A stretch of DNA of 64,000 bases from Malacoraja senta (Eukaryota): positions 16,308,001 through 16,372,000 of the forward strand of contig CM075989.1 in NCBI GenBank assembly GCA_038087875.1, given 5' to 3'. A program made the position numbers and the translations under genes. Below, piece by piece: positions 2,240 through 62,190 of this stretch (position 1 is its first letter; every line of letters starts with the position of its first letter). The notes under the pieces are model-generated. The model made no database searches and was not told where the DNA came from. It was given only the letters and a program-made list of their open reading frames with translations.

Positions 2240-2372
2240 ATAGGAAGGAACTGCAGATGCCAGTTATAAATACACCGAAGATACAAAATGCTGGAGTACA
2301 TCAGCGGGACAGGTAGCATCTCTGGAGAGAAGCAATGTGTGATGTTTCGGGTCGAGACCCTTCTTCAGACTT
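2240..2372 (-). mobile_element. Penelope-type short element with hammerhead core
   Basis: Reverse complement of 2341-2371 reads AGTCTGAAGAAGGGTCTCGACCCGAAACATC, followed by the family body (ctccagagatgc...ctccagcattttgt...gcatctgcagttcc). Confidence 0.7.
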
Positions 2373-2399
2373 CAGTCTTAAATTTGATCGATTAAAAGA

Positions 2400-2805
2400 T
2401 GCAGCATGGATACAGGCCCTTCAGCCCACCGAGACCACACCGACCATCGATCGTTCACAGTACGTTATCCCACTTTCGCATCCACTTCCTACACACTTGG
2501 AGCGATTTTGCAGATGCCGATTACCCCATAAAAACCCGCACTTTTGGATGTGGGAAGAAGCTCACACGGTATAAGGGAGTGTGTAGGAAGTAGCTGCAGA
2601 TGCTGGTTTAAACGGAAGATAGCCACAAAGAGCATTCATTTTCTCCAGAAACTGTCTGACCCGCTGAGTTGCTCCAGCTTTTTGTGTCTATCTTCGGTAG
2701 GTAACAGGGAGAACGTGCAAACTCCACACAGAAGACCGCACCCGAGGTCAGCATCGAACCCAGGTCTCTGGCTCTGAGAGATAGCAGCTCTATCAGCTGC
2801 ACCGT
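2400..2805 (-). mobile_element. HE1-like V-SINE interrupted by a Penelope-type fragment (~2575-2698)
   Basis: SINE tail (acaggcccttcagcccaccgag), V-domain remnants and a B-box-like GGTTCGATGC on the - strand. Confidence 0.6.
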
Positions 2806-2929
2806 CCAAATTCATTGATATAACATCGGTATTTTTTTTAGAAAGATAATGTAATTTTGAATTGCATCGAGCTGTAAAACTCCTGCATCTTCCCCCATCC
2901 TGAGAGCTTCCACCAGTGTCTGCAGCAGC

Positions 2930-3356
2930 TAAAGTCACTGCAACGCATGCGCTTCACCGTCTCCCCGCTCGTCTCACGGCTGAAAACGGCTCTCGGTGAA
3001 TGTTTTATCAGAGCCGACTGACACCGGTCACTTTTGTTTTGTACATTAACCCAAATTTGGTGGGGGAAGAGGTCCGAGAGATGGTTGCGAGAGGCGATCT
3101 GGTCATGTTTTGGCCCCAGCAAACAAAGCCGGTGTCGTAAATGAGAGTGGCTGTGGCGAAGGCCGTCGCTGTCGTGAAGCCGGGGGAGTGCCGTGCGGTG
3201 TATTGTGCAAGACTCGCGCGAGCCTCCCCGGGCCGCGCTGCGATTGCCGTCGACTCGGCGCTGCTGTAAACAAGAGGCCAATTCTTCAAAGAAATGTCTC
3301 AATAAACCTCTGTGTGGAGATAATGTGCGACTGGTAGCACTTGCGCCGAAGCTTCG
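2930..3356 (+). promoter_or_regulatory. RNF111: Second CpG-rich block: probable RNF111 promoter and non-coding exon 1 (donor CG|GTAAGC after 3356)
   Basis: CpG-rich unique sequence with an NRF1-like CGCATGCGC at 2944-2952. A strong donor is followed by AT-rich intron-like sequence. The TSS cannot be determined. Confidence 0.55.
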
Positions 3357-4059
3357 GTAAGCTCCTTTTTCATGTCACTCGACATTTTTCTATTTTAATT
3401 CCACACAGTATTTTAACCGTCTTCCCGGCAGGTTAAAAAGTGAATCTAAAGTCCCGGCCTGGTCATCTCCTTTCGAGCTGCTGACGTTTGTAGGCTTGAG
3501 TGTGTGACTCTCTTCTCGCCTCCCCCAAACGTCCGCATTATTTATTCAATAGCACTTGTAATGAGGGTGTGGGGGGTGGGGAGAAGTTTGAAACCCTTCG
3601 ATATTCTCTTGCAAGTCTTTACCACATTTTAACAGATGCGCAGTGAAAATTATTTTAAGTGTTTTAACTGTGGTTGCCAGGGAGTGATGTAGGATTCTCA
3701 ATAGCAGATGAACTATCTGTGTTGATTGATTGAATACTTTATAACGGGAAGTCTTGTATCTTATGTAATGTCTTCATATTTTCATATTCAATTGAGCAGT
3801 TATTAATTTCTGTGCAGGAAAGTCAACAGTACTTTAGATTTGATTCTGAAAGTGAGTACATCAATGTAATCTGTCCGATGTTGATTTTAAGCCTTTATGA
3901 TTTTTATGGTTTAAATTGTATTTTGTCATCTTTTGAAGGATAGTCAAAACTAGTTTAGATTTGGTTCTGAAAGTGGTCTGTTGAGGCTTGAATTTAAGCC
4001 TTTAATACATTTTATTGTTTAAATTGTTTTCTATTAACTTTTTAAATTGATGTCACATG

Positions 4060-5930
4060 AAATGGTGTTACTGTTGAGACTGAAGGCAGATAAATCCCCA
4101 GGGCCTGATGGTCTGCATCCCAGATTACTCAAGGAGGTGGCCCTAGAAATCGTGGATGCATTGGTGATCATTTTCCAATGTTTTCTGTGGACTGGAGGGT
4201 AGCCAATGTAACTCCACTTTTAAAGATGGGAGAGAAAAAACGGGAAATTATAGATGAGTTAGCCTTAAAGCCCTGTCCCACGGTACGAGTTCATTCCAAG
4301 AGCTCTCCCGAGTTTAAAAAAAATCAAACTCGTGGTAAGCACAGAGAATGAATGTAGCGGGTACGTTGGAGCTCGGGGACTTCTCTTAGCGCTAACGGCA
4401 GGTACTCGGGAAGACTCGCTAACGGCAGGTAAGCACGGGAAGACTCGTGAAGATTTTTCAACATGATGAAAAATGTCCACGAGTACCGACGAGTGGCCAT
4501 TACCGTAAATCTCAGAGTTCGAATCAGGGCAAACTCGGGAGAACTCATGGAATGAACTCGTACTGTGGGACAGGGCTTTAACATCGGTAGTGGGGAAGAT
4601 GCTTGAGTCGATTATTAAAGATGTTATAGCAGTCCATTTGGAAAGCAGTGACAGGATCGGTCAAAGTCAGCATGGATTTGTGAAGGGGAAATCATGCTTG
4701 ACTAATCTTCTGGAATTTTTTGAGGATGTAACGAGTAGAATGGATAAGGGAAAGCCAGTGGATGTGGTGTATCTGGACTTTCAAAAAGCCTTTGACAAGG
4801 TCCCACACAATAGATTAATGTGCAAAATTAGAGCACATGTTATTGGGGGTAAGGTATTGACATGGATAGAGAACTGGTTGGCAGACAGGAAGCAAAGAGT
4901 AAGAATTAACGGGTGCTTTTCAGAATGGCAGGCAGTGACTAGTGGGGTGCCGCAAGGCTCGGTGCTGGGCCCCCAGTTATTTACAATATATATTAACGAT
5001 TTAGACAAGGGAATTAAATGTAACATCTCCAAGTTTGTGGATGACACAAAGCTGGGTGGCAGTGTGAGCTGTGAGGAGGATGCTTTTTGGCTGCAGGGTG
5101 ACTTGGTTAGGTTGGGTAAGTGGGCAGATGCAGTATAATGTGGATAAATGTGAGGTTATCCACTTTGGTGGCAAGAACAGGAAGGCAGATTATTAACTGA
5201 ATGGTGCCAGATTAGGAAAAGGGGAGGTGCAATGAGACCTGGGTGTGCTTCTTCATCAGTCACTGAAAGTAAGCATGTAGGCACAGCAGACAGTGAAGAT
5301 TTGATTTCAGGAGCAAGGGGGTCCAACTGCAGTTGTACAGGGCCCTGGTGAGACCACACCTGGAGTATTGTGTACAATTTTGTTCTCCTAATTTGAGGAG
5401 AGACATTATTGTTTTTGAGGGAGTGCAGTGCAGGTTCACCAGGTTAATTCCCGGGATGGCGGGACTGGCATATGATGAAAGAATGGGTCGACTGAGCTTG
5501 TATTCTCTGGAATTTTGAAGGATGAGAGGGGATCTAATAGAAACATATAAAATTCTTATAGGATTGGACAGGCTAGATGCAGGAAAAGTGTTCCCGATGT
5601 TGGAGGAGTCCTGAACCAGCGGTCACAGGTTAAAAATCAGGCGTAGGCCATTTAGGACTGACATGATGAAAAACGTTTGCACCCCCAGAGGGTTGTGAAT
5701 CTGTGGAATTCTCTGCCGCAGAAGGCAGTGGAGGCTGATTCACTGGATGTTTTCAAGAGAGAGTTAGATTTAGCTCTTGGGGCTAAAGGAATCGGGGGGG
5801 TATGGGGAAAAAGCAGGAATGGGTTACTGATTTTAGATGATCGGCCATGATCATATTGAATGGCGATGCTGGCTCAAAGGGCCGAATGGCCTATTCCTGC
5901 ACCTATTTTTCTATGTTCTATGTTTCTAAT
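4060..5930 (+). mobile_element. CR1/HER1-type LINE, 5'-truncated, degraded ORF2 reverse transcriptase plus 3' UTR
   Basis: KSPGPDGLHP, QHGFVKGKSCLTNL, YLDFQKAFDKVPH, SGVPQGSVLGP and FVDD motifs, with frameshifts and stops. Tail ggccgaatggcct...ctatgttctatgtttcta. Confidence 0.92.
4268..4578. mobile_element. PIF/Harbinger-like MITE nested in the CR1
   Basis: TIRs AAGCCCTGTCCCAC...GTGGGACAGGGCTT with long subterminal inverted repeats and TTA/TAA flanks. CR1 sequence resumes after it. Second copy at 48349. Confidence 0.75.
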
Positions 5931-7609: not shown

Positions 7610-8727
7610 AGTTGATTTAAGTATACAGTTAAATGTTTGTCTTGGGTACTGACCTGGCACATCCATTATTACTTTGCTTTCGAAGTTGTTGTTTGACCCA
7701 GCTTCTTCCAATAGCTTTTTTGTTGCTTCAGATTACAGCATCTTTAGTCGTTTGTCTTCAATGTTTGTCTTCACATTTGTTGGAAGAGGGGATTTGAAGT
7801 GATATTTAAATGTCATTGAGGAATCTAGTTAAGTATATGAGTGAAAAGGAGTAAAAGGACATGCAAGTACGTTTGGAGTGGTGTGGGAGCGGTTTTATGT
7901 CACACCCACGGGGCCCACTGGGCTAAATAATACGCTCAGGACTGGTATTCTTATGACTGGCATGATCAAAGATTTTACGTTATAAAAGGCAGATAGTCAT
8001 TTGTTGACGACTAGGATTGAGTTGGTTCAAATCAAAGCTGATAGTTCATACTTCATTACTGGCTGCTCAACACCCGGCTTGAGATTAACTATTTCTTTGG
8101 TTTATGTTTCATTCGCAAGAAGAAGAAGACTTCATTACTGTATGGGGTTTGAATTTGTGTTAGGAAAAAAGCATATTTACTTAAATAGTGTAGCAAAGCA
8201 TGCAGAGTGGCAAGGCATAGGACGACAGTGGCATATTTCTCCTGATATCAAACTTCCTTTACTTCACTGCATCTTATTACTGAATTGAATAATCAATTAT
8301 TGGGTCTGACAAAATTATGAATTTTTGGTTAATTAATGTCAGTTAGTGAAGAGATGTAGTTTATTTCTGTAACTCTTTATGATATTAGGGATTTTTGCTC
8401 AAATATAATATATTTGGTTGCTTGAAAATTTCTCTTAAGATTATCATAAAGATAATGAGTTGCTGCAAGTCTGTCTGGAACTCGCTTAAGCTTGAATGCA
8501 TCCTGTTCGTACATATTCAGACAATAATAATAATAAATGCAATAATAAAGAAAAATTGTGACTGAATTGGTTATTCAAAATTGAACGACATGATATTAAA
8601 TGTGATTAACTTTTTGGTGAGAATTTTGCTTTAAGTAAAATGTATTAAGCATAATAGTACAATGCATTCATCATTATAAATTGATTTTATGAAAGAAAAA
8701 GGATGAAAGAACACATTTACCACATAT

Positions 8728-8862
8728 GTGTAGAAAAGAACTGCAGATGCTGGTTTAAATTGAAGATAGACACAAAATGCTGGAGTAACGCTGCAGGACA
8801 GGCAGCATCTCTGGAGAGAAGGAATGTGTGACGTTTTGGGTCAAGACCCTTCCTCAGACTGG
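8728..8862 (-). mobile_element. Penelope-type short element, mutated hammerhead core
   Basis: The - strand reads CTGAGGA-A-GGGT-CTTG-ACCC-AAAAC-GTC (G12 to A). Confidence 0.65.
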
Positions 8863-12090: not shown

Positions 12091-13279
12091 CGGGTGCTGT
12101 CTGTGTGGAGTTAGTATGTTCTCCCTGTGACTGCGTGTTAATGCTTAATTGTATTGTGGCTAATATATACATAAACCTTTTATACCAATGGATCCAGTTT
12201 TAAAAATGTTATGCATCAATATTTTGGTTGTTTTGCACTTTTTCTTCTTGTTTTGGTAGTGCAATGATTAAGTTATTGGATGAACATCCAGAGGCTGAGG
12301 TTTCTGTTCCAGATGCTGAGGAATTTAAACCCAAGTTTAGTGAAATTTGGAATTCATAAAGGATTAGCTTTGTCATATACAAAATATATACATAAATAAC
12401 ATTGGTTTCATTAAACTTCAGACGTGCCCAGTCTGGTCTGTATGTGATAGCCCACAGCAATATGCTTGACTCCAACCCTTGTATCATTTGGACTTGACAC
12501 TGCAAAGTGTGTATTTCTACGCTGGGTAAAGCTGATTTCTTGATTTACAAAGTTTTAATTTTGTGATGTTTTGAAATGTGTGTAATGTTCTGACCTGTGC
12601 TTTGGGATTGGGGGGGTGGGGGGGGGGGGGAAGAGAGATTATCAAAATTAATTAACTTGGAAGTAAAAGCCTGCACTTACAAAAGCGTACAGAACTTTTA
12701 TAGTAGAGAATTTTGCAGCCTGCTTAACAATTTAAAATTGCCACCTTGGCTCATGTCAACTTGCCTTTGTTTCAGAAAGGGGTGGCCCGTGAGTGAAAAT
12801 GGCCATTAATCAGATAGAAAAGAAAAATGTTAGGTTAAAGAAGAAATATGTTCTAAACTCATTTTGTAGATGTGACAAGGCCCTCCTTAAATTTCAGAGT
12901 ATGTTGAATTAAACCTTGATAGGCTGCTGAATTTCTTATAAAACAAAATTTTAATGTGTTGTATTGTGGTCCTTGCAAAATGAATGGCAAGTTTGATATG
13001 TATGAATTTAATACAATTAACTGGTTTAGAAAATTGCTAGTAGATTTCACACTCAGCTGACAAAGCAGAATACTGATTGGTTTCACATCTCAGCCAAATG
13101 TTGACTTTTCTAGCAGTTGCATTTCCCAAATTCTCGAGTGATTTTCTTAATCCTCACAACATTCTGAATTTGAGTTGAAAATACAACCATTAGACAAAAT
13201 TCGTAAAACAAGTTTGCAATGTGGAGGTTGGTTTAGAAAAAGTTAAAGTAGCTCTGTCATGCTCCTATGATTTCTGTGT

Positions 13280-13410
13280 AATAAAAAGGAACTGCAGATG
13301 CTGGTTTATACCAAAGGCAGACACAAAATGCTGGAGTCACTCATCAGGATAGGCAGCATCTCTGGAGAAAATGGATAGGTGACGTTTCAGATCGGGACCC
13401 TTCTTCAAAT
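13280..13410 (-). mobile_element. Penelope-type short element, variant hammerhead core
   Basis: The - strand reads TTGAAGA-A-GGGT-CCCG-ATCT-GAAAC-GTC-ACC. Confidence 0.65.
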
Positions 13411-14328
13411 GGTTTCCTTTGCTACTTTTAATCCGTACCCATTTATACTTGTTCAAATATTTTACTCGAAAATAGCATTTCTTGAAGCAGGATGAACACA
13501 TGCATTGCTGTCAGTGACTTGCTTTTGACCTTTTTAAAACTCCTTAAAGTGGTTAGTTAAGCATATTCAAAATGTTCCCAATTCTACTCATAGTCTTAAC
13601 ATTATCAGCTGTGTTTCATCACCACCTACCCAACAAGTCGTCCAGTCATGGATATTTTTGTGTTCTAACTTGTTTTAGTACATGCTTTCACCCCATCTAA
13701 ATGAGAATAGCAATGTGCTATTTGGACTCTGGCCCATTTGCCTTCGCACTGCGTTAGTCAAGCAGTTATTTGCTTTTTGATTCTAGAAAATGTAGACAAG
13801 TATTGGAATTCACACTACAAATGAGTTTTTTCCAGTATTTTCTGATTGTGTGTATCTGCAATCCCCACAGTGACTGAGTGCATTCTGTCAGTGGGGGCAC
13901 ACTGAAGAGCTGCACGTGAGTCACAACAACAGCCGCAGTACCGGTGAGGAAGGGCTGGCTGGTGCAGACCAGCTGCATCGATACCTAGTTTTAAAGTGAA
14001 ACTCTGCAATGTGCTGGAGTAACATAGCCATGTGAATCAGTCTGAGGAAGGGTCCCGATGTCACCTATCCGTGCTCTCCAGTGATCCTGACACTGTGCGT
14101 CGTTAATTCTTTCACATCAGAGGGACGAGATCAGAAAGAGCGTTCACCACACGCATTGCATTTGTGGCCGCTATGAGAATATCAACTGAGCTCTCAATTT
14201 TGTCTGGATTATAGGGGTGGGCGAGCCATCAGTTGCCAGATAATCCGTGTTCAACCTTGCAGAAGTGAATGATGTCACTGGCTATCTTATTCTAGAGCTG
14301 AATTACTACACATGCTATTACTATGCTA

Positions 14329-23530: not shown

Positions 23531-23531
23531 A

Positions 23532-24110
23532 CAGTGTCCTCCATAAAGACCCATAATTTATTTGTTTAAGAAGGGACTGCAGATGCTTGAAAAATCAAAA
23601 GTAGCCAAAAAATGCTGGAGAAACTCAGCGGGTGAGGCAGCATCTATGGAGAGAAGGAATAGGCGACGTTTCTTCTGAAGAAGGGTCTCGACCCGAAACG
23701 TCGCCTATTCCTTCTCTCCATAGATACTGCCTCACCTGCTGAGTTTCTCCAGCATTTTTTGGCTAATTTCCATAATTTATTTATTTTCCTCTGTACTCCA
23801 CAATTTGAGATTTGTAATTAAAAACAATTACATGTGGTTAAAGTGTACATTGTCAGATTTTATTAAAGGCCATGTTTATACATTTTGGTTTCATCATGTA
23901 GAAATTACAGCTGTGTTTATACATATTCCCCCCATTTTAGGGCACCATAATGTTTGGGACACATGGCTTCACGGGTGTTTGTAATTGATCAGGTGTGTTT
24001 AAATGCCTCCTTAATTCAGGTATAAGAGAGCTCTCAGCACCGAGTCTTTCCTCCAGCCTTTCCATCACCTTTGGAAACTTTTATTGCTGTTTATCAACAT
24101 GAGGACCAAG
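23532..24110 (+). mobile_element. Tc1 copy 2 (left TIR, 5' UTR and start codon only)
   Basis: TA|CAGTGTCCTCCATAA start. Matches copies 1 and 3 up to atgaggaccaag. Confidence 0.85.
23564..23769 (+). mobile_element. Penelope-type element in inverted (fold-back) arrangement with intact hammerhead core, nested in the Tc1 TIR
   Basis: Arms 23602-23672 and 23695-23765 are reverse complements with 2 mismatches. Core CTGAAGAAGGGTCTCGACCCGAAACGTC at 23675-23702. 13-bp TSD CCATAATTTATTT (23551-23563 and 23770-23782). Confidence 0.8.
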
Positions 24111-25329: not shown

Positions 25330-25465
25330 TAGAAACAGTGGGAACTGCCGATGCTGGTTTACAAAAAAAGACACAAAGTGCTGGAGTAATTCAGCAGATG
25401 AGGCAGAATCTCTGGAAAATATGGATAGATGACATTTTGGGTCAGGACACTTCTTCAGACTGGGT
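25330..25465 (-). mobile_element. Penelope-type short element, degenerate core
   Basis: The - strand reads CAGTCTGAAGAAGTGTCCTGACCCAAAATGTC. Confidence 0.6.
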
Positions 25466-33725: not shown

Positions 33726-33822
33726 CAGTCTGAAGAAGGGTTTCGGCCCGAAACGTTGCCTATTTCCTTCGCTCCATAGATGCTGCTGCACCCGCTGAGT
33801 TTCTCCAGCATTTTTGTGTACC
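33726..33822 (+). mobile_element. 97-bp Penelope-type insertion with intact hammerhead core
   Basis: CAGT-CTGAAGA-A-GGGT-TTCG-GCCC-GAAAC-GTT. Perfect 14-bp TSD ATCAGATATAACTT (33712-33725 and 33823-33836). Confidence 0.8.
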
Positions 33823-34197
33823 ATCAGATATAACTTGTTTGAAATCTTGCTTCCTCAACACAGTGGCCCAAGTTCTTTTTGTACAGCTGTTTAAAATCCA
33901 TTTGGATGATCATTGAAGCTGCAAAAGTAATTTAACTTTCAGACAACTGCTTTAATCATGGGATTTTGGGGCCCATTCAGCTCATGGGCCAATACTTCGT
34001 CCATGCAATCTTTAAACATTGTAATTTGTTTTATTCCAAGCTCCAAACTGCATGTAGGGATCCGTGTTTATTCAGGGAAACTGATAATCATGTATTTGGA
34101 CCTGAATTTGGGGGGGAATGATTGAGCAGTGAAGGAGGGAAAAAATTGGCAGATATAGTTTAATGTGAGACGTGTCGGACATCAACATTTTTGAGTA

Positions 34198-38280: not shown

Positions 38281-40993
38281 TGTGTGTGTGATAGGGTGAG
38301 TGGCTCTAGCTTGTTTAACATTTCATAGAAATAGAATTTGGATGTATGTTGAACTTCTTTCATTTTATTTTAGTCACGATGTATTTATCCTGATTTAAAA
38401 TGTTTGCAAAAAACATGCTGATAGCAGGACCTTCCATTGAATATTTGATGCAATAATAATGGAAATCATCTGTTTATGAAAACATCTTTGTAGTTGACCA
38501 GTTTTAACTTTTTAGCAAAGTTTTTCATTGGATCTGATCAACAGCAACATAAAAAATAGTCTCAGCAATATCTTCAGGTTAGCATTTTGTGCCTCTTTTA
38601 ATCCAAAATTACAAACGCCTAAAAGATAAGTAAATAAAATATTTTAACCGCACTTTTAATGTAGTGAAAGGAACAGGAGACTTGCTAAATATAACACTTT
38701 TTAAACTAATCAGCTATCTTAGTGACCTGGATGTGCAGAATCTGTCTACCATGTTGTTGATCCATAATGATTCCATAAATTTTTCATTTAATGTGAAGTG
38801 TTTCGATAGGTCTTGATTACCTGAAAGATACTTGTTGGAAGTTTGTCGTGAAAGATACTTGTTGGAAGTTTGTCCACTTTTAATAGTGTGAAAAGTGCTA
38901 GTAAAAATATTTCTAGATTAAACTGTTCTTCCAATTTTTGAAAATTAATTCAGTTTACTGGATGCTCAAAAACAAATTTGATATTATTTAGAAACAAAGA
39001 ACTGCAAATGCAGGTTTTTACCAGAAATAGACACAAAGTGCTTCAGTAACTCAGCTGGTCAGGCAGCATCTCTGGAGAAAAAGGATAGGATATTATTTGT
39101 TGGGACAATGCAATGATGATTAACTCTGTAATAATTCTTAAAATGCAATTACCCGTTCTGATGTGTGGGTGGTGTTTTTATAGAGGACCAAGCCAGTAAC
39201 TAGCAGTATCAGAGGAATTTCTAATGTGATGATTATAATAAACTCATATTTGTTTTGGAAACTCCATCTGTTGCAGCTGTACAGAACTTTGCCTTTAATT
39301 ACAAACTGATAATATTTTAGCCATCTTGACCTGTTTTGAGTAAAGTAATCTTTTTTCTCTTGTTCATGACAGAGCTGGGATTAAAAAAACAGCTGTGATT
39401 TTATTTGCTGCTCTTTTTTAAATTAGTGTTCTTGTTCAATTGTAATTTCTGGTCGTCATCATTCAACCATTTTGAAGAGTACAATGACCTTTTCTCACCA
39501 TTAAAATGTCAGAATTTTCCACGTAAAACACTCTTCATTGCTCAGTTGATAATTTGTTTTAACTGAGTCATACAGGCCCAAGGTCCAAATTCAGATTTCC
39601 AGTCTCTGCTCAGTGAATTTGCCAAGATTCCAGCATAGATATGCAAAGCACCAAACCACCTCAAGAAAAAGTTGTGTACAGTACAAATTACTTCATCATG
39701 ATATTAAGTGAATGGAAAATAAGACTACCAGAGACATGGTAGTCTTTGCTATTTTATTTGCACTTGAAGATGTCCTTAACTAATTTATCTTTCAATGTAT
39801 TATAGCACAAGGGTGACAACTGAACACCTCTGTACTAATTGTACTCAGAAGGGGGTGGAGTCTCCTCAAACACTGCAGTCTGTTTTATGAAGAAGTTCTC
39901 TCAATATGCTCCCTGAATGGCTGTTAGTGTTTTGATGTTTGATCAAGGGGAATTTTTAGAATTAACCATGGTTTGGTCTGGACAAAGACAAGAAGTTTCT
40001 TCTCTCAAGGAATAATGAGCCATTTGAATTTTTAAAACATCTTCATTTTTGCTGAGAAATTCAAATTTCAACCTGTCGTATTCAAACAGTAGCTGATTAC
40101 TTAAGGTTTATTGTGCCAGGTATTTTGATGAATAATTAGACAGAATGGTGTTGATGGATGTAATTCGAAGGAGATTAATAATATAATTCTCCCTTGGAAA
40201 TTTGTTAACTAATAATCAGCTTATGTGGAGGAAGTAAATTCATTAAATTGAACACTATTTTTCCTGCACATGCACATGACTGCTGCAGTTACCCTCAAAG
40301 TAGCCATGACTCCATAAAAAAGCAAGCAGAATTTCTTTAAAATTGACTTGGGTTTCATTGCAAGGTATGTTGTTTTTCTCACAGAAATTAATTATTTTGT
40401 ATTTGGCAAAAGCCTTACCCGATAGAGCATAATAAATAGACTAATAACATATTTGAAACCAATATCTGCAAATTAAATATCCACAAATAAAAGTTAAAAG
40501 GCAACTTAATTTCTCCTTGTCTTTATGATCATCTGTGTGAAGAACTATACCACAAATATCTTTCAGGTAAAGATGAAAAATGCATCGAAAGTGTGTTCGT
40601 TTCTGAAGAGAAAAAAAGAGCTTCCATTTTGAGTTGTGAATATAAAATCTTAGTCAATCTTGATTCTACTGAAAAGGCATTCCTCAAAGTATTTCAGATT
40701 TTTGTTTTTCTTTTCTTGGACATTAAAATTGTGTGTTTCTATTAACTAGGAAGAGTCTAAATCCAAATTTGATCAAGGTTATTGTGGAGTAAGTGGCCAT
40801 TGTGGAGCTGTGCATTTGCATTTGCTGTTGAGTTTTTTTCAGACGTATAGAAACATGCATGATAGTAGTAATTTAAATCTGTAGCTAGAGCTTGGTTTCT
40901 TAAATAACGTTTTGAATTTAACTCTGAAAAATATTTCATTCAGTGGATAACAAATGACCAATCAAGAGGTTTAGTGATCATTTTTGTTTTGAT

Positions 40994-41588: not shown

Positions 41589-42389
41589 GTAAGTTAAACC
41601 TGACATTGGTGATTTGTGAAATTGCATGTTACTTTAAGGTCTAGAAGGAATGTTTGAAATTAAATTTAGAATTACTAGATGCAGTGATTTGGCAGCAATA
41701 ATACTATATGAATTAAATATGATTTAGGATTTTGCATCTCTGAATGGTCAACTTGATACATTGATTTTGATTTTGTTGATTTAAAAAAATCACTATTAAA
41801 GGCTTTCCCCCACACATTTGTTGAAAGTTAACTTTAAATTTGGCATGTGCACCAAATGGTTTGTGGATGCAATGGTATAAAGTAGAATTTCTTGCCTGTG
41901 GTTACTTTTGAGCACTTCTAGAAATGTTTTTGACATTTATCTTTAAAGACATAATCCAGAATAATAAAAATATTACTGTAATCTCATTATACCCCCAGTT
42001 GGTATTTAGCATCTCTTGAAGATGATCTGTCTGTGTGTAAAATTGACGGAAACACATACACTGCTACTGAATGCTGAGGCTCAGTGTTAGTACTTGCTCT
42101 TATGTTAGTTTGTTGTGGTATAGACCAAGAACAACAGGAGGAGGAATTAGCCTCAAGGCCTCCTATGTTATTTAAAGAGAGCATGGCTAAAGAAGGGTCA
42201 TTACCCGTCACCCATTCCTTCTCACCAGAGATGCTGCCTACTCCAGCATTTTGTGTCTATCGTGGCTAATCCTTTATCTGAAGCTCATTTTCTTATCTTA
42301 TTGTTATTCTTTGACTGTATGCAAAAATCGCTGAATTTTAATTGACAGCCCTTGACTGAAGAAACTTTGCTTTGTTTGAGTACTAACTG

Positions 42390-43780: not shown

Positions 43781-44164
43781 CTGACTCCTTCTCTGGAGAC
43801 GATGTTCCCTGGTCCAATAAACCAGGAGAAACAGCACCTATGTATGAAAATCCTTGAGCTTTTTCTGGCTAAAATCCTATTCTGTACAGTCTGTGATGAT
43901 GCTATAATGCATTGCTGAATGAAGTGTCTGCAGAAGAGTCCTGACCTGAAATATAGCCAGCCGATTCCTACCACAGATGCTGCCTGATCTGCTGAGTTCC
44001 TCCAGCACTTTGTGTTTTGGTCAGTGTTCCAGCATCTGCCATTCCTTGTGTCTCTGAGTGAAAGGTGCTGTCTTTAGATGAGATGTTAAACTGAGGACAT
44101 CTTTGACTTACGGAGAATGCAAAACCAAATGTATTCCCATCTGGCAAACGGTGTAGAAATGTGA

Positions 44165-45490: not shown

Positions 45491-47249
45491 TCGAACCTCA
45501 TTACTCCATTGATACAATTGTTTTTATAACACTATTTTCTATAACACAGAGTTTCTTAGGAATGCACTTATCACAAAATAGCAGAACTACCTGTATCAAG
45601 TATTAACAATAATATAGTTGATTGGTCTTGTGTTAGCGTATGCTGTCATAGATGTGAAAATTCGGAAAGTAGATGACAGAGAAACTCTGGCCTTTAATGG
45701 AATGTATTGTTGTGGTCTTTGTGGAGGTAAATGATGCTGAATCAGTGAACTGGTGTAAATGTAGTCTTGATGTAGAAACCATTGACATAAATGGAGCAAA
45801 ACGCAGCAGATGTTGGTAGCATCCATGAGCAGAGAAATTGAGTCAATGTTTCATGTCAAGAACCCTTCATCAGAAACAGAAAAGTGAAAAAAATGTTGTG
45901 TGTTGTAGAAGAAGTGGGATGCAGAGACCAGAGAAAACAGGGTGCTGACAAAGTTGTCATGGTAACAATGGCATCAAAAACCAATTGGAGACAGATGGGT
46001 AAACTAAAATTGAAGCAACAGTGCAGAAGCGTGCACGGAGAGGGGGAAAGAAGGACAATTATAGTGCACCTCCACTTTACTGAGGGATTACATTCCTAGA
46101 AAATAGTTGGCATCGGAAAGTGCCATGTCAAGAATGTTTGGTGGAGACAGAAAAGCAGCCCTGAGTCACAGTGGGCTCCCTCTCTATGTCCATTGCAGGA
46201 CGTAAATGCCTGGGACTATTTGAGATTGAAAATACTTAAATCATTAATTTCTTTGCAAATGCAAATTCTGTTTCCCTACAACCTTTGATCTATATCTTCA
46301 AGTAACAACATTTGTTAATGTTCTACAAAAGAAATCAATTTCTGAAGAACTATTTTTATATATGTTCATTCAGTTCTTATTATATTTGTGCTGAAATATA
46401 CCTGGCTTTCAGATATGTCTTGGCTTTATTTGAACACCAGTGCCTTGACACAGCAATGATAATACTTGCTCACTTGCACAAAGTTAAACGGTATATTTTC
46501 ACACACATATCTAAGATTTAAGAATAATATCTTGGGTAGACATTGTGGTTCTATATTAAGTATGTTTTACATTGATGGGCATTATACTTTTAGTGAATGA
46601 ATATCTGATCTTTTAGGCATTAAAACACGGAGGTGCAATAGACCATCAGCATTTGAAGCCTGCTCAGCTATTCATTTTGGGTAAAGCTTCAGTACTTTGG
46701 CTCCATTTGCCCGTTTATGTTCCATTTCAATGATGTCAGTTAACAGATGTCTGTAGATCTTGAAAGGATTAATTTGAGCATCATCACAATCTTCTAAGAG
46801 AAAGATTGAGTTCTAGATTCATGTGAAAATCTTTGCATTGCGCTAAACCCAAACAGATAATGTCAAACTTAGAGTCTGTCGCTGTAATATAACTTTGTAT
46901 GGGGCAGGTTGGTAGAATTTTCTAATCACTGCATGATAGTCTTGTACTGAGGAACTTGGAACTTCACTGTTGATCAGTGCTTTTTATAGGGAATTAGATA
47001 GATGTGAGAGAATAGCCTCGTACATGCGGGGTGATGTGGAAACAATGGTGCAAAGTGATTGGCGGGGTTGTTCTTATGGAAGGAAGCTTAGACAGAAAGG
47101 GTTGAATGGTCGTCTTTGCCATAACGATTCCGTGATTCTATCATTTCTCAACTCGGATTCCCAGCTTGGGTTTTGGAGCACACAGTTAGTTTCAGCTTTA
47201 GTAGTTAATGGATAAGTTGGTATTAAAATAACCATACAAGAATGAAGGG

Positions 47250-52229: not shown

Positions 52230-52260
<31 letters not shown>

Positions 52261-54633: not shown

Positions 54634-54792
54634 GTTTGTAGGAAGGAACCTCATGCCGGTTTAAACCAAGGATGGACACAAAAAGCTTGAGTAGCTTCAG
54701 TGAAGAAGGGTCTCGACCCGAAACGTCACCCATTCTTTCTCTCCAGAGATGCTGCCTGTCCCGCTGAGTTACTCCAGCTTTTTGTGTCTATC
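54634..54792 (+). mobile_element. Penelope-type insertion with partial inverted arm and hammerhead core lacking C3
   Basis: GTGAAGA-A-GGGT-CTCG-ACCC-GAAAC-GTC at 54700-54727. 14-bp TSD TTTGATTATATTAA (54620-54633 and 54793-54806). Confidence 0.78.
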
Positions 54793-55762
54793 TTTGATTA
54801 TATTAACTTTTTTGTACCTAATTTACCAAGTTAAAATATAAGTTTCCACCAGCCCTGGTGTGTAATACAGTTTTGAATTTGGTACATGGGTATCAGTTTA
54901 AAGTTTTCTCATCGTTTGATAAGGCCAACATTTTTTTTTCTGTGTCAGCCTGACTTTGGAGGGTGTTCCTTAAACACGTTGCAATGTAGTTTCAGGAGTG
55001 TGGTTGGGGAATACCAAGTTAGCTTTTCTAATTTTCTAGTCTCTGCACCACATAATTTATACAATAGACATGGTATGATTAAATGTTTAAAGCAGATGCA
55101 GAACAATGTAGCTTTAGCGTGTACCTTTATATAATCGGCTTGTAATGTTTGTTTGATGGTCCGATTATGCTGTGGAGGTTTAATTGCCATTATAATTCTT
55201 GGATAAAATTTTGATTATAGATTCTAAGCTCCCCTTTCATTTATTTTCCATCCTTCAGAAAATGAGTCGTATTCACAGTTGTTGGACATAGAATTAGGAT
55301 ATAGTCCTGCCGCAAGATGTTATCTATTAACCTAGTTTTTTTAATGGTCGCATATGGCGGCTGTGCTGCAGGCAGCTTTGGTGGAGATAATTGGGTAATT
55401 TGTGTGTCAATCGCGCTTGGTGACCATACAATAGATAATGGCTGCAATTAGTTTTAGAGGCATAATGTTCTTATAAAAACTCGTAGAGCATTATTTCTGG
55501 GGAATTTGTTCTTTTGCATGGGGAAGTTTTACAGATTGTTTCCTCTGCTCTTTAAAGAGACTGATTGTTAAAATGACAGCTGAGAGCAACATGCCATGGC
55601 CTAATTCCAATCTTTGGATGACTATTGGCAGTAAATCACCCTGTTTGAAGAATGTGTATGTTTTTTTAAATTAATTAAGTTTGAGATTTGTCAACTGTCT
55701 CAACTTTGCGTCCATTTAAGACCCTAATGAAATTTTCATTTATTTTTTTACTTTGATCACAG

Positions 55763-57963: not shown

Positions 57964-59275
57964 GTTTGTATTCTACTACCTCGTTTACAGAAGAAAAATT
58001 GGGCGGGAACAGAATAATAGAATATCTGAGATGCAGTAGGAATAATGTTACGATGACAAAAAATTTAATTTATCATGCAACTCGTTTATATTGTATTTGA
58101 TGAAAACAGCTTTAAAATGGCAACATTTTGAATTGAATTAATGTGTTACGGTTGCTCCAATTTTAATTGGTAATAAGAATTTTATTATGCAATCGGATTA
58201 TGTTTTAAATTGAACTGTTTAAAACTGTCATGCCCATAAGTAATTATTACAATAATTCTGATGCTGGAGAGTGTAATACTGTTGAGAAAAAAATTGCAGC
58301 TTCAATTGGGGGGGGGGAGGGGGGGGGAATTGGCTCTGAGCTCTTGCACATGCTTTGCAATTGCATGAAATGCTGTACATTTAATTTATCCGTTGAATCG
58401 AAGGAAAGTTAAATGAAATAATTTCACTGTGAAATACCACTAATTCCTACAAAAAAAACAATGGGCTTGCAGCCAAGGCAACTGTTTCTTGGAAGAATTA
58501 ACAACATTAAAATGAGGCATAATGACCAATAAAAAAACTCTGGTTAACAGTACTAAAGATAAACAAGTGAATATGGAACGTCTGAAGGAGAAATCAAGAG
58601 GATAGGAAGCTAAATTGATATGTTACAAGGCAAAATGGTTATGAATAATGTAGGTATGTCAAGCAATAATCCAATAAAGGTGCGTGCCAATTAAAAGCAT
58701 GAGAAATATTCCAACTGTAGAGGCTGGACAATTTGCATTACTGTATGGAGTCATCTCTCCAGGCATGTATCGCAGGACGTTGAGCTCTGCCAAAAAATTT
58801 GTATTTTAGAAATTGTGCCAACTGTTATGTTTTCTGATAATCTCCAACAAGGGGCAAAGAGATAAACTGAAGAAACATAACATGGGAATAAATGAAGTTC
58901 ACCAGGGCATAAAGTGAAAGAAAATTAATATTCAGAGCTGTGTTTATATCAGGATAGTTTGTCCCGACTTGTACAGTTAAAGTTTTATTTGGAGAGAAGA
59001 TAGCAAAGAGTGTTAGACACAAAGTGCTGGAGTAACTCAGTGGGCCAGATAGCATCTCTGAAGAAAAGGGATGAGTTGCAGCATCTCTGGAGAAAAAGGA
59101 TGGGTTATAAAGATAGTAAAATGTGTTAACGTTTGTCAATTATTACTATTTTCCAATGCCTAAAGCCATAATTGGTGGACTATAAATGAACACACATAAT
59201 AGAAATTATGGACAATGTTATTAACGTGATACGATTTTCATAATTGACATTAATTGTATGTTTTATTTTAAACAG

Positions 59276-59522: not shown

Positions 59523-59849
59523 GTAAGTCTTATTCTTTTTTTTTTTTGCAGTACCATGGGGTAGTTATATTAAATTCACTTCCAGCATAAGCATCTGACC
59601 TGAAAAGGCTTATCTATAAATACAGGAATTGCAAAATTAGTTTAATGTATATTATATAACCATGCTATTTTTTAAGTGTGTGTTTTTAGCTGCAATTATA
59701 CCTGGATTTTTTTTTAAACCGTTTTTGTATGATGATCAAGAGCAGAAACCTCTGCATTTCAATTTGTATCTCATTCTGCTATTCCTGTTTTGATATTGTG
59801 GTTAACATGGTGTGCCCGATATAGCTCCACGCTCCAGAATGAATGTTGC

Positions 59850-60680
59850 TCAGATTCATAGCACTTTATTGTCTTATATACCTTGCCCGTGAATCTCTGT
59901 GAAACAGTATATATGATAATGATAGATACGACAATCTTTCATTACCATTAGCTTGCAAAACAACAGAATAGTGTAACGGTTGTGGTGCAATCTGAAGTAA
60001 AGCAAAAAATGAACTCAAGCAATAATGGAATAAGTGTATCAATGGTAAGAGTATACGGCGGCAGCTCTGGGAGGGAGTGTGTGATAGAGGACTTGTTCAG
60101 GAGTCTTATAATAGTGGGGAAGAGGTTGTTCTTGAGTCTGGACACAAGAGCTTTCAAGCTCCTGTAACTTGTCCCTGAAGGTAGAAGAGATAAAAGGGAA
60201 TGGCCATCAAGGTACTTCCAGTCGTCTTGATGCACTGCAATGTGAAAATGGACTAAATGGAAGGAAGTGACAAGCCTGTGATGGATTTGACTGAGTTTGC
60301 CAGTCTCTTCAGGTTCAGGCAGTCAACAGCAGACCTGTTGCCATACCAGGCTGAGATACATCTCATCAGAATACTTTCTATAGTACATCTGTAGAAGTTC
60401 GAGTGAATCCTTGCAGATATTTCAAATCTTCTCAGATACCTAAGAAAGTACTTTCTTCATCATGAATTTAGTGTGAAAGGACCAGGTTGGGTTGCTGGCG
60501 ATATGAATGCTGAGGGGCTTGAAATTGTTGATCATCTCTACAGCAGCTTTGTTGATAAGTATAGGGTTGTGTTCACTCTCCCCCACTGCTTCTGTTGGTC
60601 AACCACCAACTCTTTCATCTTGCTAATGTTAAGCACCAGGTTGATGTTCTGACACCATGACATAATGTTCCTCATAATGA
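59850..60680 (-). mobile_element. Old Rex1/Babar LINE 3' fragment
   Basis: GHSLLSLLPSGTSYRSL...RLKNNLFPTIIRLLN with a gacaataaa tail. Confidence 0.72.
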
Positions 60681-60974
60681 ACATAGAAAGGTAATTTGGC
60701 TCTGATGCATTTTAGAAAATTCACATCTACAATTTATTCTCTGGGTTAATTTCCATGACAAATGAGCAATGAAAGCTGGTTGAAGAATTTTCAGCATCCG
60801 GTGGCCTTGTTTTTCCACAAGGGAGTTGATGAGAAATAATTAGTACAGTCATCAATCTTGAATGGAATTTTCTAAAGTCCTTACATGTTCATTCTGCTAA
60901 GTTTTGGAAATTCTTCTTTTTCCAAGGTGGCTATTTAGCTGTCAATTCTGATATTATTTATTGCTTCCTTCCAG

Positions 60975-61293
60975 ATGGCCCACTGCCAAGACCATTGCAC
61001 CACCAAGCCCCCATCTGCCCACATGCGCATGGAAATCCTCCCCCTCCACCACAACCCATTCCCCAACCAGAGTATGCTATTCCACACCCAGTGCACCCTT
61101 TCCATCCACAGCTTCCCTCACATCCTGCAACACATACTGTACCACCAGCACCTGCCCCACCTCCGCACCTTCCTGCAACTGCAGCAACAATGCCGCACCA
61201 TCTTCCTACTGCTCCACCCTCTCAGCGACTACACCATCATGAAATGCTTCAGAGAATGGAGGCGCAGCGAAGAAGAATGATGCAGCATCCGAC
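60975..61293 (+). CDS. RNF111: RNF111 exon 8 (Pro/His-rich)
   Basis: ttccag|[29 protein letters not shown]...YAIPHPVH...[22 protein letters not shown]; phases 1 to 2. Confidence 0.95.
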
Positions 61294-62114
61294 GTAAGTC
61301 AAATGTTCCTCATAATTTTGCCATGCCACCAATTCTCGTTAGTGCACCATAATAATTGGGCATTTATTTTAAGTTCCAATTGTTTTGCAAATTTCTATAT
61401 GTCTCTTCAAAAAGTAAATGCCAGATTACTTTTTTAATACTTGTCATCTTTCCAGGCCAAATATATACAGCTCGAGCCACTTAAAGCTTTTCCTTGTTTT
61501 GTACATTTATTTTAAATTAAAGCTCAATTAATAATTCAAAATGTAGACATTTAACACCTGGTCTGATTAAATTGAACACTTTTTCTCTGTGTTTACTCAC
61601 TACATTGGACACTTCAGGAAAGCTAACATTTTCTAGGATTACAAATGAGTTAGAGCAACTGCACATTTGGCCATTGTATGCATGGCCATTGTAAATATCT
61701 ACATACTGTAAGCTGCACTAGATATTTAAAATAATAAATAGCCACAGCGTCTTTTAAGATGGAAGGATGGGTTGTTTAAAGTCTACCACTGCTGAAGATT
61801 TCAGCATTTTTTGTGGTTGCCTTCTGATAATGCTGGTGCAACAATCTTAATACTCACAACAGTAAACATTTCCTGACCGCCTTAATATGTTGGTAGTTTT
61901 GAAGAATGGCCAATGATATCTTCAACAACCTATTAAAATCTCTGTCAATTAATGGATCACAGAACATATTCCAAATTCAATGACAGCAGTAAATTGAGCA
62001 ATGGAAAAACCCAACCCTCCAACCTCTGCTGCAAAGCGAAATCCCAGCTTTAAATTATGATGGTTATGTAGTCATATGGTGTTAACTTGTACCAAAACAA
62101 TACAATACCAAAAT

Positions 62115-62190
62115 AGGCCCAAAATGCTGGAGTAACTCAGCGGGACAGGCTGCGGGACGGGATGGGTGACGTTTCGGGTCGAGACCCTTG
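62115..62190 (-). mobile_element. Penelope-type fragment with half hammerhead core
   Basis: The - strand reads AAGGGTCTCGACCCGAAACGTCACCC; the CTGAAGA box is missing. Confidence 0.6.

What the first reader, a model, noticed from the sequence alone, without database searches (positions are those of the whole stretch)
2341..62190. Dispersed family of short Penelope-type retroelements carrying a minimal hammerhead ribozyme
Seen: at least ten copies of a ~100-200 bp repeat contain, intact or decayed, CTGA(A/G)GA-A-GGGT-NNNN-ACCC-GAAAC-GTC. Cores are at 2341(-), 8830(-), 13381(-), 14040(+), 23675(+), 25431(-), 33730(+), 42190(+), 43925(+), 45845(-), 54700(+) and 62165(-). Stem II pairing persists while the loop varies (CTCG, TTCG, CTTG, CCCG), with G-U substitutions. 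Established: CUGANGA...GAAA...NUH is the hammerhead catalytic core, and one extra base after A9 is tolerated. A loop-less palindromic stem III (ACGU) is the hallmark of the minimal, dimer-dependent type I hammerheads in Penelope-like element pLTRs. Inference: this is a ribozyme-bearing non-autonomous Penelope derivative that has spread through this genome. Caveat: stem I is only ~2 bp here, so monomer cleavage is doubtful.
Basis: partly seen in the sequence, partly recalled or inferred. Interest (0 to 1): 0.8.

Follow-up and report, generated by a model that had tools for sequence, protein, structure and literature searches.

The report
Penelope retrotransposon stubs with hammerhead motif
These repeats are short end-pieces of a very common Penelope-like jumping gene, each carrying that element's small hammerhead-ribozyme motif; this is a known pattern, most copies are likely dead-end by-products, and the motif's RNA cutting is untested and predicted to need help.

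Summary
All 12 listed sites carry the repeat, and the motif gives 8 hits against 0.02 expected. The window holds about 16 insertions.

The Penelope link is now shown. In the window's own genome the same module lies 108-130 nt downstream of a GIY-YIG open reading frame in 18 of 20 loci. Long copies encode reverse transcriptase plus GIY-YIG and sit in partial tandems of about 3.9 kb.

The short repeats are the last 100-135 bases of that element: the hammerhead motif plus a "tail". In 862 kb I found 361 insertions (6.4% of bases):
- 281 solo, 77 head-to-head and 3 tail-to-tail;
- target duplications of 10-18 bp;
- two fixed 3' ends, at +92 and +128;
- a sharp 5' end 3-5 nt upstream of the motif.

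Head-to-head copies almost always pair one short with one long end (49 of 53). This matches the published one-sided 30-40 bp tail.

The motif meets the published minimal-hammerhead features except helix I, which has 2 bp. I found:
- no covariation among copies;
- no Rfam hammerhead hit;
- no copy ends or read ends at the cleavage site;
- an unfavourable predicted fold.

The copies are best read as stubs of an autonomous element, not a separate non-autonomous family. Earlier scan notes reached the same reading on other genomes.

The parts
2241..2371 (-). Solo stub covering element positions -3..+126 (long tail). The core is CTGAAGAAGGGTCTCGACCCGAAACATC; G16.2->A breaks the ACGU palindrome.
2580..2698 (.). 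Head-to-head fragment. Arms are 2580-2629(-) covering +81..+130 and 2633-2698(+) covering +31..+98. No hammerhead core is left.
8727..8861 (-). Solo stub covering -4..+130, flanked by the 12-bp duplication CATTTACCACAT. The core carries G12->A (CCCAAAAC) and loop CTTG.
13273..13407 (-). Solo stub covering +1..+132. The core is decayed (C3->T, stem II 3' strand ATCT).
14037..14089 (+). Decayed stub with an internal deletion in the core (ATCAGTCTGAGGAAGGGTCCCGA..TGTCACC).
23560..23773 (.). Head-to-head insertion. The left arm 23560-23672(-) covers +20..+131 (long tail). The right arm 23674-23773(+) covers -1..+98 (short end) and has an intact core at 23675-23702. The target duplication is CCATAATTTATTT.
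   Evidence: (hairpin seen as miRNA-like)
25341..25462 (-). Solo stub covering -4..+120, with a decayed core (CTGAAGAAGTGTCCTGACCCAAAATGTC).
31670..31732 (+). Fragment covering +25..+87, with no core.
33726..33823 (+). Young solo stub of subfamily B covering -4..+92 (short end), 98% identical to the ORF-bearing reference. The core is intact (CTGAAGAAGGGTTTCGGCCCGAAACGTT). The target duplication is (A)TCAGATATAACTT.
38993..39092 (-). 5'-truncated stub covering +26..+125, with the duplication GATATTATTT and no core.
42187..42261 (+). Decayed stub covering 0..+92. The GAAA box is deleted (CTAAAGAAGGGTCATTACCCGTCACCC).
43926..44047 (+). Decayed solo stub covering -2..+122.
45780..45900 (-). Very decayed copy (TTTCTGATGAAGGGTTCTTGACATGAAACATTG...). 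It was seen by eye only and not recovered by BLAST.
54637..54799 (.). Head-to-head insertion. The left arm 54637-54696(-) covers +67..+128 (long tail). The right arm 54701-54799(+) covers +1..+99 (short end), and its core carries C3->G. The target duplication is TTTGATTATATTAA.
59014..59107 (-). Fragment covering +26..+90, in two pieces, with no core.
62110..62189 (-). Stub truncated inside the core, covering +6..+94. It starts at ..AAGGGTCTCGACCCGAAACGTC and lacks CTGAAGA.

Best explanation
The repeats are the last ~100-135 bases (minimal hammerhead motif plus 'tail') of an abundant autonomous Penelope-like retrotransposon, and most copies are likely one-off stub insertions made by that element's reverse transcriptase rather than a self-copying short element.

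Shown:
- The unit is about 3.9 kb. [quoted passage not shown]
- Insertions end at one of two fixed 3' points, +92 or +128.
- Insertions carry AT-rich target duplications of 10-18 bp.
- Insertions are often head-to-head pairs.
- Most copies start 3-5 nt upstream of the motif.

Inferred, by analogy with the Anolis Poseidon element (PMC11167929):
- Reverse transcription starts internally on the RNA at these two sites.
- In head-to-head insertions both DNA ends of the staggered break likely prime, one at each site, probably on one RNA. The cDNA from the nearer site reaches the template's 5' end first and joins the other.
- The hammerhead is predicted to cut after GUC/GUU at +27 only as a dimer or with the element's protein, to process multi-unit transcripts. 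Nothing in the copies shows that it cuts.
For: Abundance:
- The exact 31-mer occurs 13,276 times in the 1.94-Gb genome.
- An 862,200-bp sample holds 441 arms in 361 insertions, covering 6.37% of bases. That extrapolates to about 1 million arms.

Link to an autonomous element:
- A GIY-YIG Pfam search of the genome led to L007. There the ORF stop, a 107-nt UTR, the motif, the tail and a target duplication follow in order.
- 18 of 20 ORF-end loci have the motif 108-130 nt downstream on the same strand.
- The ORF end is 43% identical (E 2e-49) to an 879-aa protein with RVT_1 plus GIY-YIG.
- L039 covers residues 282-879 of that protein, including YIDD.
- L065 has a 1031-codon open frame that is 48% identical over 738 aa, with RVT_1 and GIY-YIG hits.
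- The tandem junction ORF end-UTR-motif-tail-5'UTR-ATG is seen in L115.
- At least 40 copies are 98-99% identical across that junction, with tandem spacings of 3,871-3,997 bp.
- 28 of 30 full-length copies carry an upstream partial unit of variable length.

Insertion signatures:
- 77 head-to-head against 3 tail-to-tail.
- Outer ends are 49 short+long, 4 short+short and 0 long+long among 53 classifiable of 77. Solo ends split 105 short to 97 long, giving binomial P = 3e-11.
- 35 of 36 head-to-head insertions with a target duplication are short+long.
- Target duplications are 10-18 bp and 66% AT against a 57% background.
- Short-end arms reach the 5' limit in 43 of 67 cases, long-end arms in 21 of 62.
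- Junction positions differ from copy to copy.
- The same boundaries (-6..-2, +92..94, +128/129) appear as loose ends in RNA reads of related organisms.

Short copies share the sequence variants of ORF-linked copies. Young B-type stubs are 96-100% identical to the ORF-bearing reference.

Published descriptions match. These cover the minimal hammerhead in pLTRs (PMC4209133), two internal RT start sites with the tail between them and a protein-assisted hammerhead not needed for insertion in vitro (PMC11167929), and inverted 5'-truncated copies with a 30-40 bp tail at one end (PMC3846280 and PMC8557442, passages).
Against: The sharp 5' end is not explained.
- 109 of 144 solo arms that cover the motif start at -9..+5.
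- Only 1 of 30 full-length copies has a boundary there. So neither a simple strong stop in the RNA nor a start site shared with the long RNAs fits easily.

The short-to-long ratio differs between variants: A-type 65 short to 6 long, B-type 11 short to 10 long. This could mean extra amplification of A-type stubs. It could also mean only that old long copies are harder to recognise.

Target duplications of at least 10 bp were found for only 28 of 281 solos, against 36 of 77 head-to-head insertions.

End mapping rests on BLAST ends, good to a few nt. 24 of 77 head-to-head insertions had an end outside both classes.

For the ribozyme step:
- There is no covariation: 85.6% of cells are paired against 85.6% in shuffles, and the score is 0.166 against 0.164.
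- There is no Rfam hammerhead match even at E<=10.
- Helix I has only 2 bp.
- The hammerhead-like monomer fold scores +5.7 kcal/mol against an MFE of -9.4.
- Copy 5' ends at +27..+29 number 5 of 281 solos, not enriched.
- There is no pile of read ends and no dip at the cleavage site.
Confidence: 0.82

Rival explanations
1. One reading: the ~135-bp module is a self-propagating, SINE-like non-autonomous element. A discrete short RNA would start at the TCAGT initiator-like site (-5..-3). The Penelope enzyme would copy it in trans by internal initiation, so each copy can found new copies.
For: - The 5' end is sharp: 109 of 144 solo arms start at -9..+5, and match to the consensus falls to background at -6.
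- Only 1 of 30 full-length copies has a boundary there, so the short template seems to be a separate RNA population.
- TCAGTCT fits the YYANWYY initiator consensus (recalled). An initiator-like motif in a pLTR is noted in PMC3846280.
- A 38-nt tandem duplication of -6..+31 looks like a template jump from an RNA 5' end.
- A-type copies run 65 short to 6 long, against B-type 11 short to 10 long.
Against: - Short copies share the variants of ORF-linked copies, and no private substitution was seen.
- Head-to-head junctions are all different.
- 89-96% of RNA reads run on into unrelated flanks, on both strands in two runs, and no pile of starts was reported. Poly(A) libraries of related organisms would miss a small RNA, however.
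- ARAGORN finds no tRNA-like part in the window.
- No promoter test was possible.
Confidence: 0.13
2. The copies are non-LTR retrozymes: tandem hammerhead-bearing units transcribed, self-cleaved and circularised.
For: Retrozymes are reported as derivatives of Penelope-like elements in vertebrates, including one cartilaginous fish (preprint 10.64898/2026.07.22.740005, results section read). Rare micro-tandems of the core at 31-47 nt spacing exist.
Against: - Only 7 of 174 cores have a same-strand neighbour within 600 bp.
- Copies are dispersed and flanked by target duplications.
- No long arrays of short units were seen in 862 kb.
Confidence: 0.02
3. The hammerhead-like sequence does not work as a ribozyme. 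It is kept because it is part of the RNA or DNA that the element's enzyme or promoter needs: a protein-binding site, or the palindrome TCAGTCTGA at the pLTR start.
For: - No covariation, a 2-bp helix I, an unfavourable fold, and no cleavage-site ends in copies or reads.
- In the Anolis element, hammerhead mutants did not affect insertion in vitro, and no reads ended at the cut site (PMC11167929).
- Conservation between subfamilies A and B begins exactly at -5/-6, while the UTR upstream is unalignable (refs printed).
Against: - All core bases, the extra base, G10.1-C11.1 and the ACGU palindrome are kept in both subfamilies.
- The three A/B differences in the 28-mer fall on loop 2, a wobble-compatible stem position and H17 (C->U), all tolerated by hammerheads.
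- The Anolis hammerhead does cleave when protein is added.
- The motif is found in the elements across phyla.
Confidence: 0.3
4. The copies are fold-back DNA transposons (MITE-like elements with terminal inverted repeats).
For: Some copies are near-perfect hairpins. The one at 23620-23748 even scores as a miRNA-like hairpin.
Against: - Arms are unequal and their junctions variable.
- 281 of 361 insertions are single arms.
- Duplications are 10-18 bp and variable.
- The sequence is the 3' end of an RT-encoding element.
Confidence: 0.01

Closest known systems
Canonical endonuclease-positive Penelope-like elements (Penelope/Poseidon, Neptune, Nematis clades), as described by Arkhipova et al. 2013 (PMC3846280), Craig et al. 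2021 (PMC8557442) and Frangieh et al. 2024 (PMC11167929)
   Same: [quoted passage not shown]
- Partial tandems that form pseudo-LTRs.
- Heavy 5' truncation.
- An inverted 5'-truncated copy placed head-to-head.
- A 30-40 bp tail at one end only (here 36 nt, between +92 and +128).
- Variable target duplications in AT-rich DNA.
- A hammerhead motif in the pLTR a short way upstream of the RT start sites.
- A near-palindrome at the pLTR start.
   Different: - The clade within the Penelope-like elements was not determined.
- The ORF is longer, about 1,200 codons from the ATG, with a proline-rich repetitive N-terminal part.
- In the Anolis element the ORF starts inside the hammerhead. Here the ATG lies about 31 nt after the tail.
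- The stubs are extremely numerous, about 6% of sampled DNA.
Minimal type I hammerhead of metazoan Penelope-like elements (Cervera & de la Pena 2014, PMC4209133)
   Same: CUGANGA and GAAA boxes, an unpaired base between A9 and G10.1, the G10.1-C11.1 pair, no helix III loop with a palindromic ACGU, and a location in the pLTR. A 2-bp helix I is also reported for Drosophila virilis Penelope.
   Different: Helix II has only 4 bp, against 6-8 in the Schistosoma and Drosophila examples. Helix I has 2 bp, against 4-5 in most families. No activity data exist. No Rfam hammerhead family reaches E<=10 on it.
Non-LTR retrozymes (Cervera & de la Pena 2020; Li et al. 2026 preprint)
   Same: A type I hammerhead and kinship to the pLTRs of Penelope-like elements.
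   Different: Retrozymes are tandem arrays that give circular RNAs. These copies are dispersed single or head-to-head stubs with target duplications.
L1 twin-priming inversions
   Same: Both DNA ends of the target prime cDNA, giving an inverted 5' segment joined to a direct 3' segment.
   Different: Here the two arms overlap almost fully. Each arm starts at a fixed internal site of the RNA rather than at a poly(A) tail or a chance internal match.

Membership tests
EN+ Penelope-like element | Reverse transcriptase domain of the PLE/telomerase-like kind | tested here: met
   The L065 ORF is 48% identical over 738 aa to an 879-aa RVT_1+GIY-YIG protein. RVT_1 scores 26.4 bits, below Pfam's 29.6 cut-off. 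The YIDD and FTMDV motifs are seen in L039. Kinship to telomerase RT itself was not tested.
EN+ Penelope-like element | C-terminal GIY-YIG endonuclease in the same ORF | tested here: met
   PF01541 scores 32.1 bits, over the 22.6 cut-off, in L007. It scores 19.5 bits at residues 936-969 of the 1031-aa frame. The YIGETK..EH motif lies at the ORF end.
EN+ Penelope-like element | Pseudo-LTRs from partial tandem copies | tested here: met
   L115 shows the junction ORF end-UTR-motif-tail-5'UTR-ATG. 28 of 30 full-length copies have an upstream partial unit. Tandem spacings are 3,871-3,997 bp.
EN+ Penelope-like element | Adjacent inverted 5'-truncated copy (head-to-head) | tested here: met
   77 head-to-head against 3 tail-to-tail among 361 insertions. 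The L007 insertion shows it with ORF sequence.
EN+ Penelope-like element | [quoted passage not shown] | tested here: met
   The two 3' ends lie 36 nt apart. 49 of 53 classifiable head-to-head insertions, and 35 of 36 with a target duplication, have one of each.
EN+ Penelope-like element | Target-site duplications of variable length | tested here: met
   Duplications of 10-18 bp were found in 64 of 361 insertions, with 66% AT.
Minimal type I hammerhead of PLEs | Core boxes CUGANGA and GAAA, U16.1 and H17 | tested here: met
   The consensus is CTGAAGA-A-GGGT-CTCG-ACCC-GAAA-CG-T-C. Subfamily B has GTT.
Minimal type I hammerhead of PLEs | Unpaired base between A9 and G10.1; G10.1-C11.1 pair | tested here: met
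   A at position 7 is present in 166 of 169 gapless copies. G8-C19 is the commonest pair.
Minimal type I hammerhead of PLEs | No helix III loop; palindromic 15.2-16.2 that allows a dimer | tested here: met
   ACGT is the consensus. 93 of 145 distinct rows keep C-G and 126 keep A-U.
Minimal type I hammerhead of PLEs | Helix I of 4-5 bp | tested here: not met
   Only U-1/A+28 and G-2/C+29 can pair. A 2-bp helix I is reported for D. virilis Penelope.
Minimal type I hammerhead of PLEs | Covariation or compensatory changes within consensus families | tested here: not met
   150 of 195 arms were aligned. 85.6% of cells are paired against a shuffled mean of 85.6%. The covariation score is 0.166 against 0.164, and 186 of 500 shuffles are as high.
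Minimal type I hammerhead of PLEs | Self-cleavage | not testable with these tools
   Indirect signs are negative. No copy ends or read ends fall at +27/+28, and the fold is unfavourable.
Rfam hammerhead families (Hammerhead_1 and relatives) | Match to the covariance model | tested here: not met
   No hammerhead family appears at gathering score, at E<=10 on the whole window, or at E<=10 on a 101-nt stretch around an intact copy.
Non-LTR retrozyme | Tandem arrays of hammerhead-bearing units | tested here: not met
   7 of 174 cores have a same-strand neighbour within 600 bp. Three of these are 31-47 nt micro-duplications.
SINE | tRNA-, 5S- or 7SL-derived head with an internal Pol III promoter | tested here: inconclusive
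   ARAGORN finds no tRNA-like gene in the window. No promoter scan for Pol III boxes was run.

The most novel reading that the evidence does not exclude
The -5..+128 module is copied from a discrete short RNA of its own, starting at the TCAGT initiator-like palindrome beside the hammerhead. It is a 'strong-stop'-like or SINE-like product of internal initiation, and it has filled about 6% of this genome. The strict short-plus-long rule of head-to-head insertions records that both DNA ends of the break prime on one RNA, held by a dimeric enzyme, at two fixed sites 36 nt apart.
Probability: 0.25. Interest if true: 0.55.

Novelty: new member of a known kind. Interest (0 to 1): 0.3.

Why it matters
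Penelope-like elements are the least understood class of retrotransposons, and only one has been studied in vitro. This genome holds an estimated 0.8 million natural insertion records of one family. These records repeat three things with large numbers: the two internal start sites, the one-sided tail, and priming from both DNA ends.

They also show that the hammerhead cut site does not define the ends of the copies. That agrees with the in-vitro finding that cleavage is dispensable for insertion.

For annotation, the repeats should be masked as Penelope pLTR stubs. They should not be called ribozyme genes, miRNA hairpins or MITEs. The fixed 5' stop beside the motif remains a concrete open question.

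Tried and rejected
- **Rfam:** three searches found no hammerhead family. The only hits were miRNA-like scores for the palindromic copy, which I rejected as an artefact of the inverted repeat.
- **Pfam on fragments:** a scan of 81 upstream ORF fragments from four 5'-truncated copies found no RT. Those copies simply end before the RT. The RT was found later in longer copies.
- **Profile HMM for end mapping:** the ends were more diffuse than with BLAST, because UTR states came from only two sequences. I did not use it.
- **Conservation of the core against its flanks:** rejected as evidence. Copies had been picked by a fuzzy match to the core, and a 1-nt indel shifts the columns after +34.
- **Copy 5' ends at the cleavage site:** an apparent peak at +29 came from a mismatch in the reference copy. 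Most such arms extend upstream when read directly.
- **Transcription start at -5 for the full-length RNA:** weakened, because 1 of 30 full-length copies begins there.
- **An alternative hammerhead register cutting after AUC at -4:** considered by hand and rejected. There is no room for helix I, and subfamily B lacks the helix III pairing.
- **Pol III B-box likeness of stem II:** considered and dropped, because the spacing is wrong.
- **The look-up of sequencing runs:** no RNA holder listed. The raw RNA runs I laid are from related organisms, not shown to be the same species.
- **Not run:** no structure or complex prediction, because none bears on the question.

Full report
**1. The observation**

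There are 8 matches with up to 3 mismatches, against 0.02 expected. The four remaining listed sites hold decayed or truncated copies when read directly. BLAST with three copies finds more. The final map gives 15 insertions in the window, 3 of them head-to-head pairs, plus one very decayed copy seen only by eye. Only the cores at 23675(+) and 33730(+) keep every canonical core base.

**2. What the repeat belongs to**

The window's genome (1.94 Gb) holds the exact 31-base core word 13,276 times. A Pfam GIY-YIG search of that genome led to locus L007. There an ORF ending ...YIGETK...PSGMNID* is followed by, in order:
- a 107-nt pyrimidine-rich UTR;
- the motif;
- a tail ending ...CTGCAGTTCTTTCTTACACA;
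- a 13-bp target duplication.

The 5' part of that insertion is an inverted copy.

Searching the genome with that 203-aa ORF end gave 107,298 first-look candidates. All 150 scored had E<1e-78. In 18 of the 20 loci fetched, the motif lies 108-130 nt downstream of the ORF end on the same strand. L022 and L035 are the exceptions.

Further links to a full element:
- The ORF end is 43% identical to the C-terminus of an 879-aa protein with RVT_1 and GIY-YIG.
- Copy L039 covers residues 282-879 of that protein and shows YIDD.
- Copy L065 has a 1031-codon open frame that is 48% identical over 738 aa. It has weak RVT_1 (26.4 bits) and GIY-YIG (19.5 bits) hits.
- In L115 the order is ORF end, UTR, motif, tail, then directly a 31-nt 5'UTR and an ATG that opens the same ORF. 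This is a partial tandem, that is, a pseudo-LTR.
- At least 40 copies are 98-99% identical across this junction, some spaced 3,871-3,997 bp apart.
- 28 of 30 full-length copies have an upstream partial unit cut at variable points, from 25 to at least 1,500 nt.

This is the anatomy of canonical endonuclease-positive Penelope-like elements.

**3. Anatomy of the short copies**

I took an unselected 862,200 bp: 464 kb around the window, plus 200 kb each from two other contigs. I mapped every arm onto element coordinates, with the C of CUGA as position 0.

Counts:
- 441 arms in 361 insertions: 281 solo, 77 head-to-head, 3 tail-to-tail.
- 6.37% of bases, which extrapolates to roughly one million arms.
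- 3' ends fall in two classes: about +92 (..CCAGCATTTTGTGTCTA) and about +128 (..CTGCAGTTCCTTCCTAC). Solos split 105, 97 and 79 unclassifiable.

Head-to-head insertions almost always combine one of each end:
- 49 short+long, 4 short+short and 0 long+long among the 53 that could be classified. 24 of 77 could not. Binomial P = 3e-11.
- 35 of 36 among those with a target duplication.
- The short-end arm reaches the 5' limit more often (43 of 67) than the long-end arm (21 of 62).
- Junction positions differ between copies.

Target duplications of at least 10 bp were found in 64 of 361 insertions. They are 10-18 bp long and AT-rich.

5' ends:
- 109 of 144 solo arms that cover the motif begin at -9..+5. 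The mode is -5..-3, so copies begin (T)CAGTCTGAAG.
- Match to the consensus falls to background at -6.
- Only 5 of 281 solos begin at +27..+29, the predicted ribozyme cut.

RNA reads from three runs of related organisms show the same three boundaries as loose ends.

**4. Comparison with the literature**

Cervera & de la Pena 2014 (PMC4209133; parts 1-2 of the text read) define the minimal hammerhead of Penelope pLTRs:
- an extra base between 9 and 10.1;
- G10.1-C11.1;
- a palindromic 15.2-16.2;
- a short helix I, 2 bp in D. virilis;
- dimer dependence and low activity in vitro.

Frangieh et al. 2024 (PMC11167929; main text read) studied the Anolis Poseidon element. They show that:
- reverse transcription starts at two adjacent internal RNA sites;
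- the optional tail is the sequence between those sites;
- both DNA strands are cut and extended;
- the hammerhead cleaves only with protein;
- it is not needed for insertion in vitro, and no reads end at its cut site.

Arkhipova et al. 2013 (PMC3846280) and Craig et al. 2021 (PMC8557442) were read as passages only. They describe inverted 5'-truncated copies, a 30-40 bp tail often present at only one end, palindromes at the pLTR 5' end, and a transcription start inside the pLTR.

My counts therefore quantify known features rather than reveal new ones. Earlier notes of this scan on other genomes reached the same reading. One of them also flagged the sharp stop beside the motif as unexplained.

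**5. The ribozyme question**

By sequence, the motif meets every published feature except the length of helix I. Subfamilies A and B differ in the 28-mer at only three places. These are a loop base, a U-A to U-G change, and H17 C to U. All three are tolerated.

There is no positive evidence of function here:
- The covariation test on 150 of the 195 arms found is flat.
- The G-U pairs are what C->T and A->G decay produces.
- No Rfam hammerhead family appears even at E<=10.
- The hammerhead-like monomer fold is +5.7 kcal/mol against an MFE of -9.4 kcal/mol. In the MFE fold, GAAGAAGGG pairs with the pyrimidine run at +29..+42.
- Coverage crosses the cut site without a dip or a pile of ends. 89-96% of reads run on into unrelated flanks, on both strands in two runs. 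So the dispersed copies are passively transcribed.

**6. Mechanism proposed**

Shown: the element's structure, the two 3' ends, the head-to-head rule, the target duplications and the 5' limit.

Inferred:
- The enzyme starts cDNA internally at +92 or +128.
- In double-primed events each DNA end uses a different site, likely on one RNA.
- The leading cDNA (from +92) reaches the template end and joins the trailing one.
- Most products are stubs that cannot transpose again.
- The hammerhead would process multi-unit transcripts with protein or as a dimer.

**7. What remains open**

The fixed 5' limit is unexplained.
- It coincides with a 9-nt near-palindrome, TCAGTCTGA, and with an initiator-like TCAGT.
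- It also coincides with the point where subfamilies A and B begin to be alignable.
- A 38-nt tandem duplication of -6..+31 looks like a template jump from an RNA 5' end.
- Yet only 1 of 30 full-length copies has a boundary there. So the short template may be a separate RNA population.

This observation and the excess of A-type stubs keep the non-autonomous reading alive at about 13%.

**8. Verdict**

This is a new member of a known kind, of modest interest.

Noticed in passing
G000:C14:18,244,000-18,406,000 and many small contigs (loci L005-L016): A second, different Penelope-like family. It has 759-aa open frames with RT and GIY-YIG, 32% identical to P0001. It sits in long tandem arrays with periods of about 7.4 kb, 5.5 kb and 1.5 kb. 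Some units carry another hammerhead-like word, CTGACGA-A-GCTA-CAGTGA-TAGC-GAAAC. That word also has an extra A and a fully different stem II.
   Followed up: partly
L189 (G000:C1:3997100-3997800); also sample positions R13:65346/65377 and R5:186046-186130: Micro-tandem duplications of the core at 31-47 nt spacing, for example -6..+31 repeated twice inside a head-to-head insertion. They look like template jumps. They would place two minimal hammerheads side by side.
   Followed up: partly
element positions +74..+80 and +104..+110 (e.g. window 23749-23755; L065 5189-5225): The word CCAGCAT occurs twice. Each occurrence lies about 12-18 nt upstream of one of the two 3' ends, as if the start-site signal were duplicated. 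In A-type copies the stretch between the sites also holds the palindromes GGTTTAAACC and CTGCAG.
   Followed up: no
L065 2145-2430; L067 about 4164-4824: The N-terminal third of the element's ORF is proline-rich and holds tandem repeats, for example 14 or more copies of a 48-bp unit in L067. This makes the ORF longer than in typical Penelope-like elements.
   Followed up: no
window 11682-11758: A near-perfect 25-bp inverted repeat with a 4-nt loop, which scores as a miRNA-like hairpin (MIR7696, 41 bits, far below gathering). It is unrelated to the Penelope stubs.
   Followed up: no
window 1179-1758: A GC-rich block of tandem repeats with periods of 30, 46, 54 and 92 bp, including five copies of a 46-bp unit. 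It is unlike the AT-rich rest of the window.
   Followed up: no
862-kb sample: Target duplications of at least 10 bp were detected for 36 of 77 head-to-head insertions but for only 28 of 281 solo arms. Either solos are older, or some are remnants of head-to-head insertions that lost one arm.
   Followed up: no
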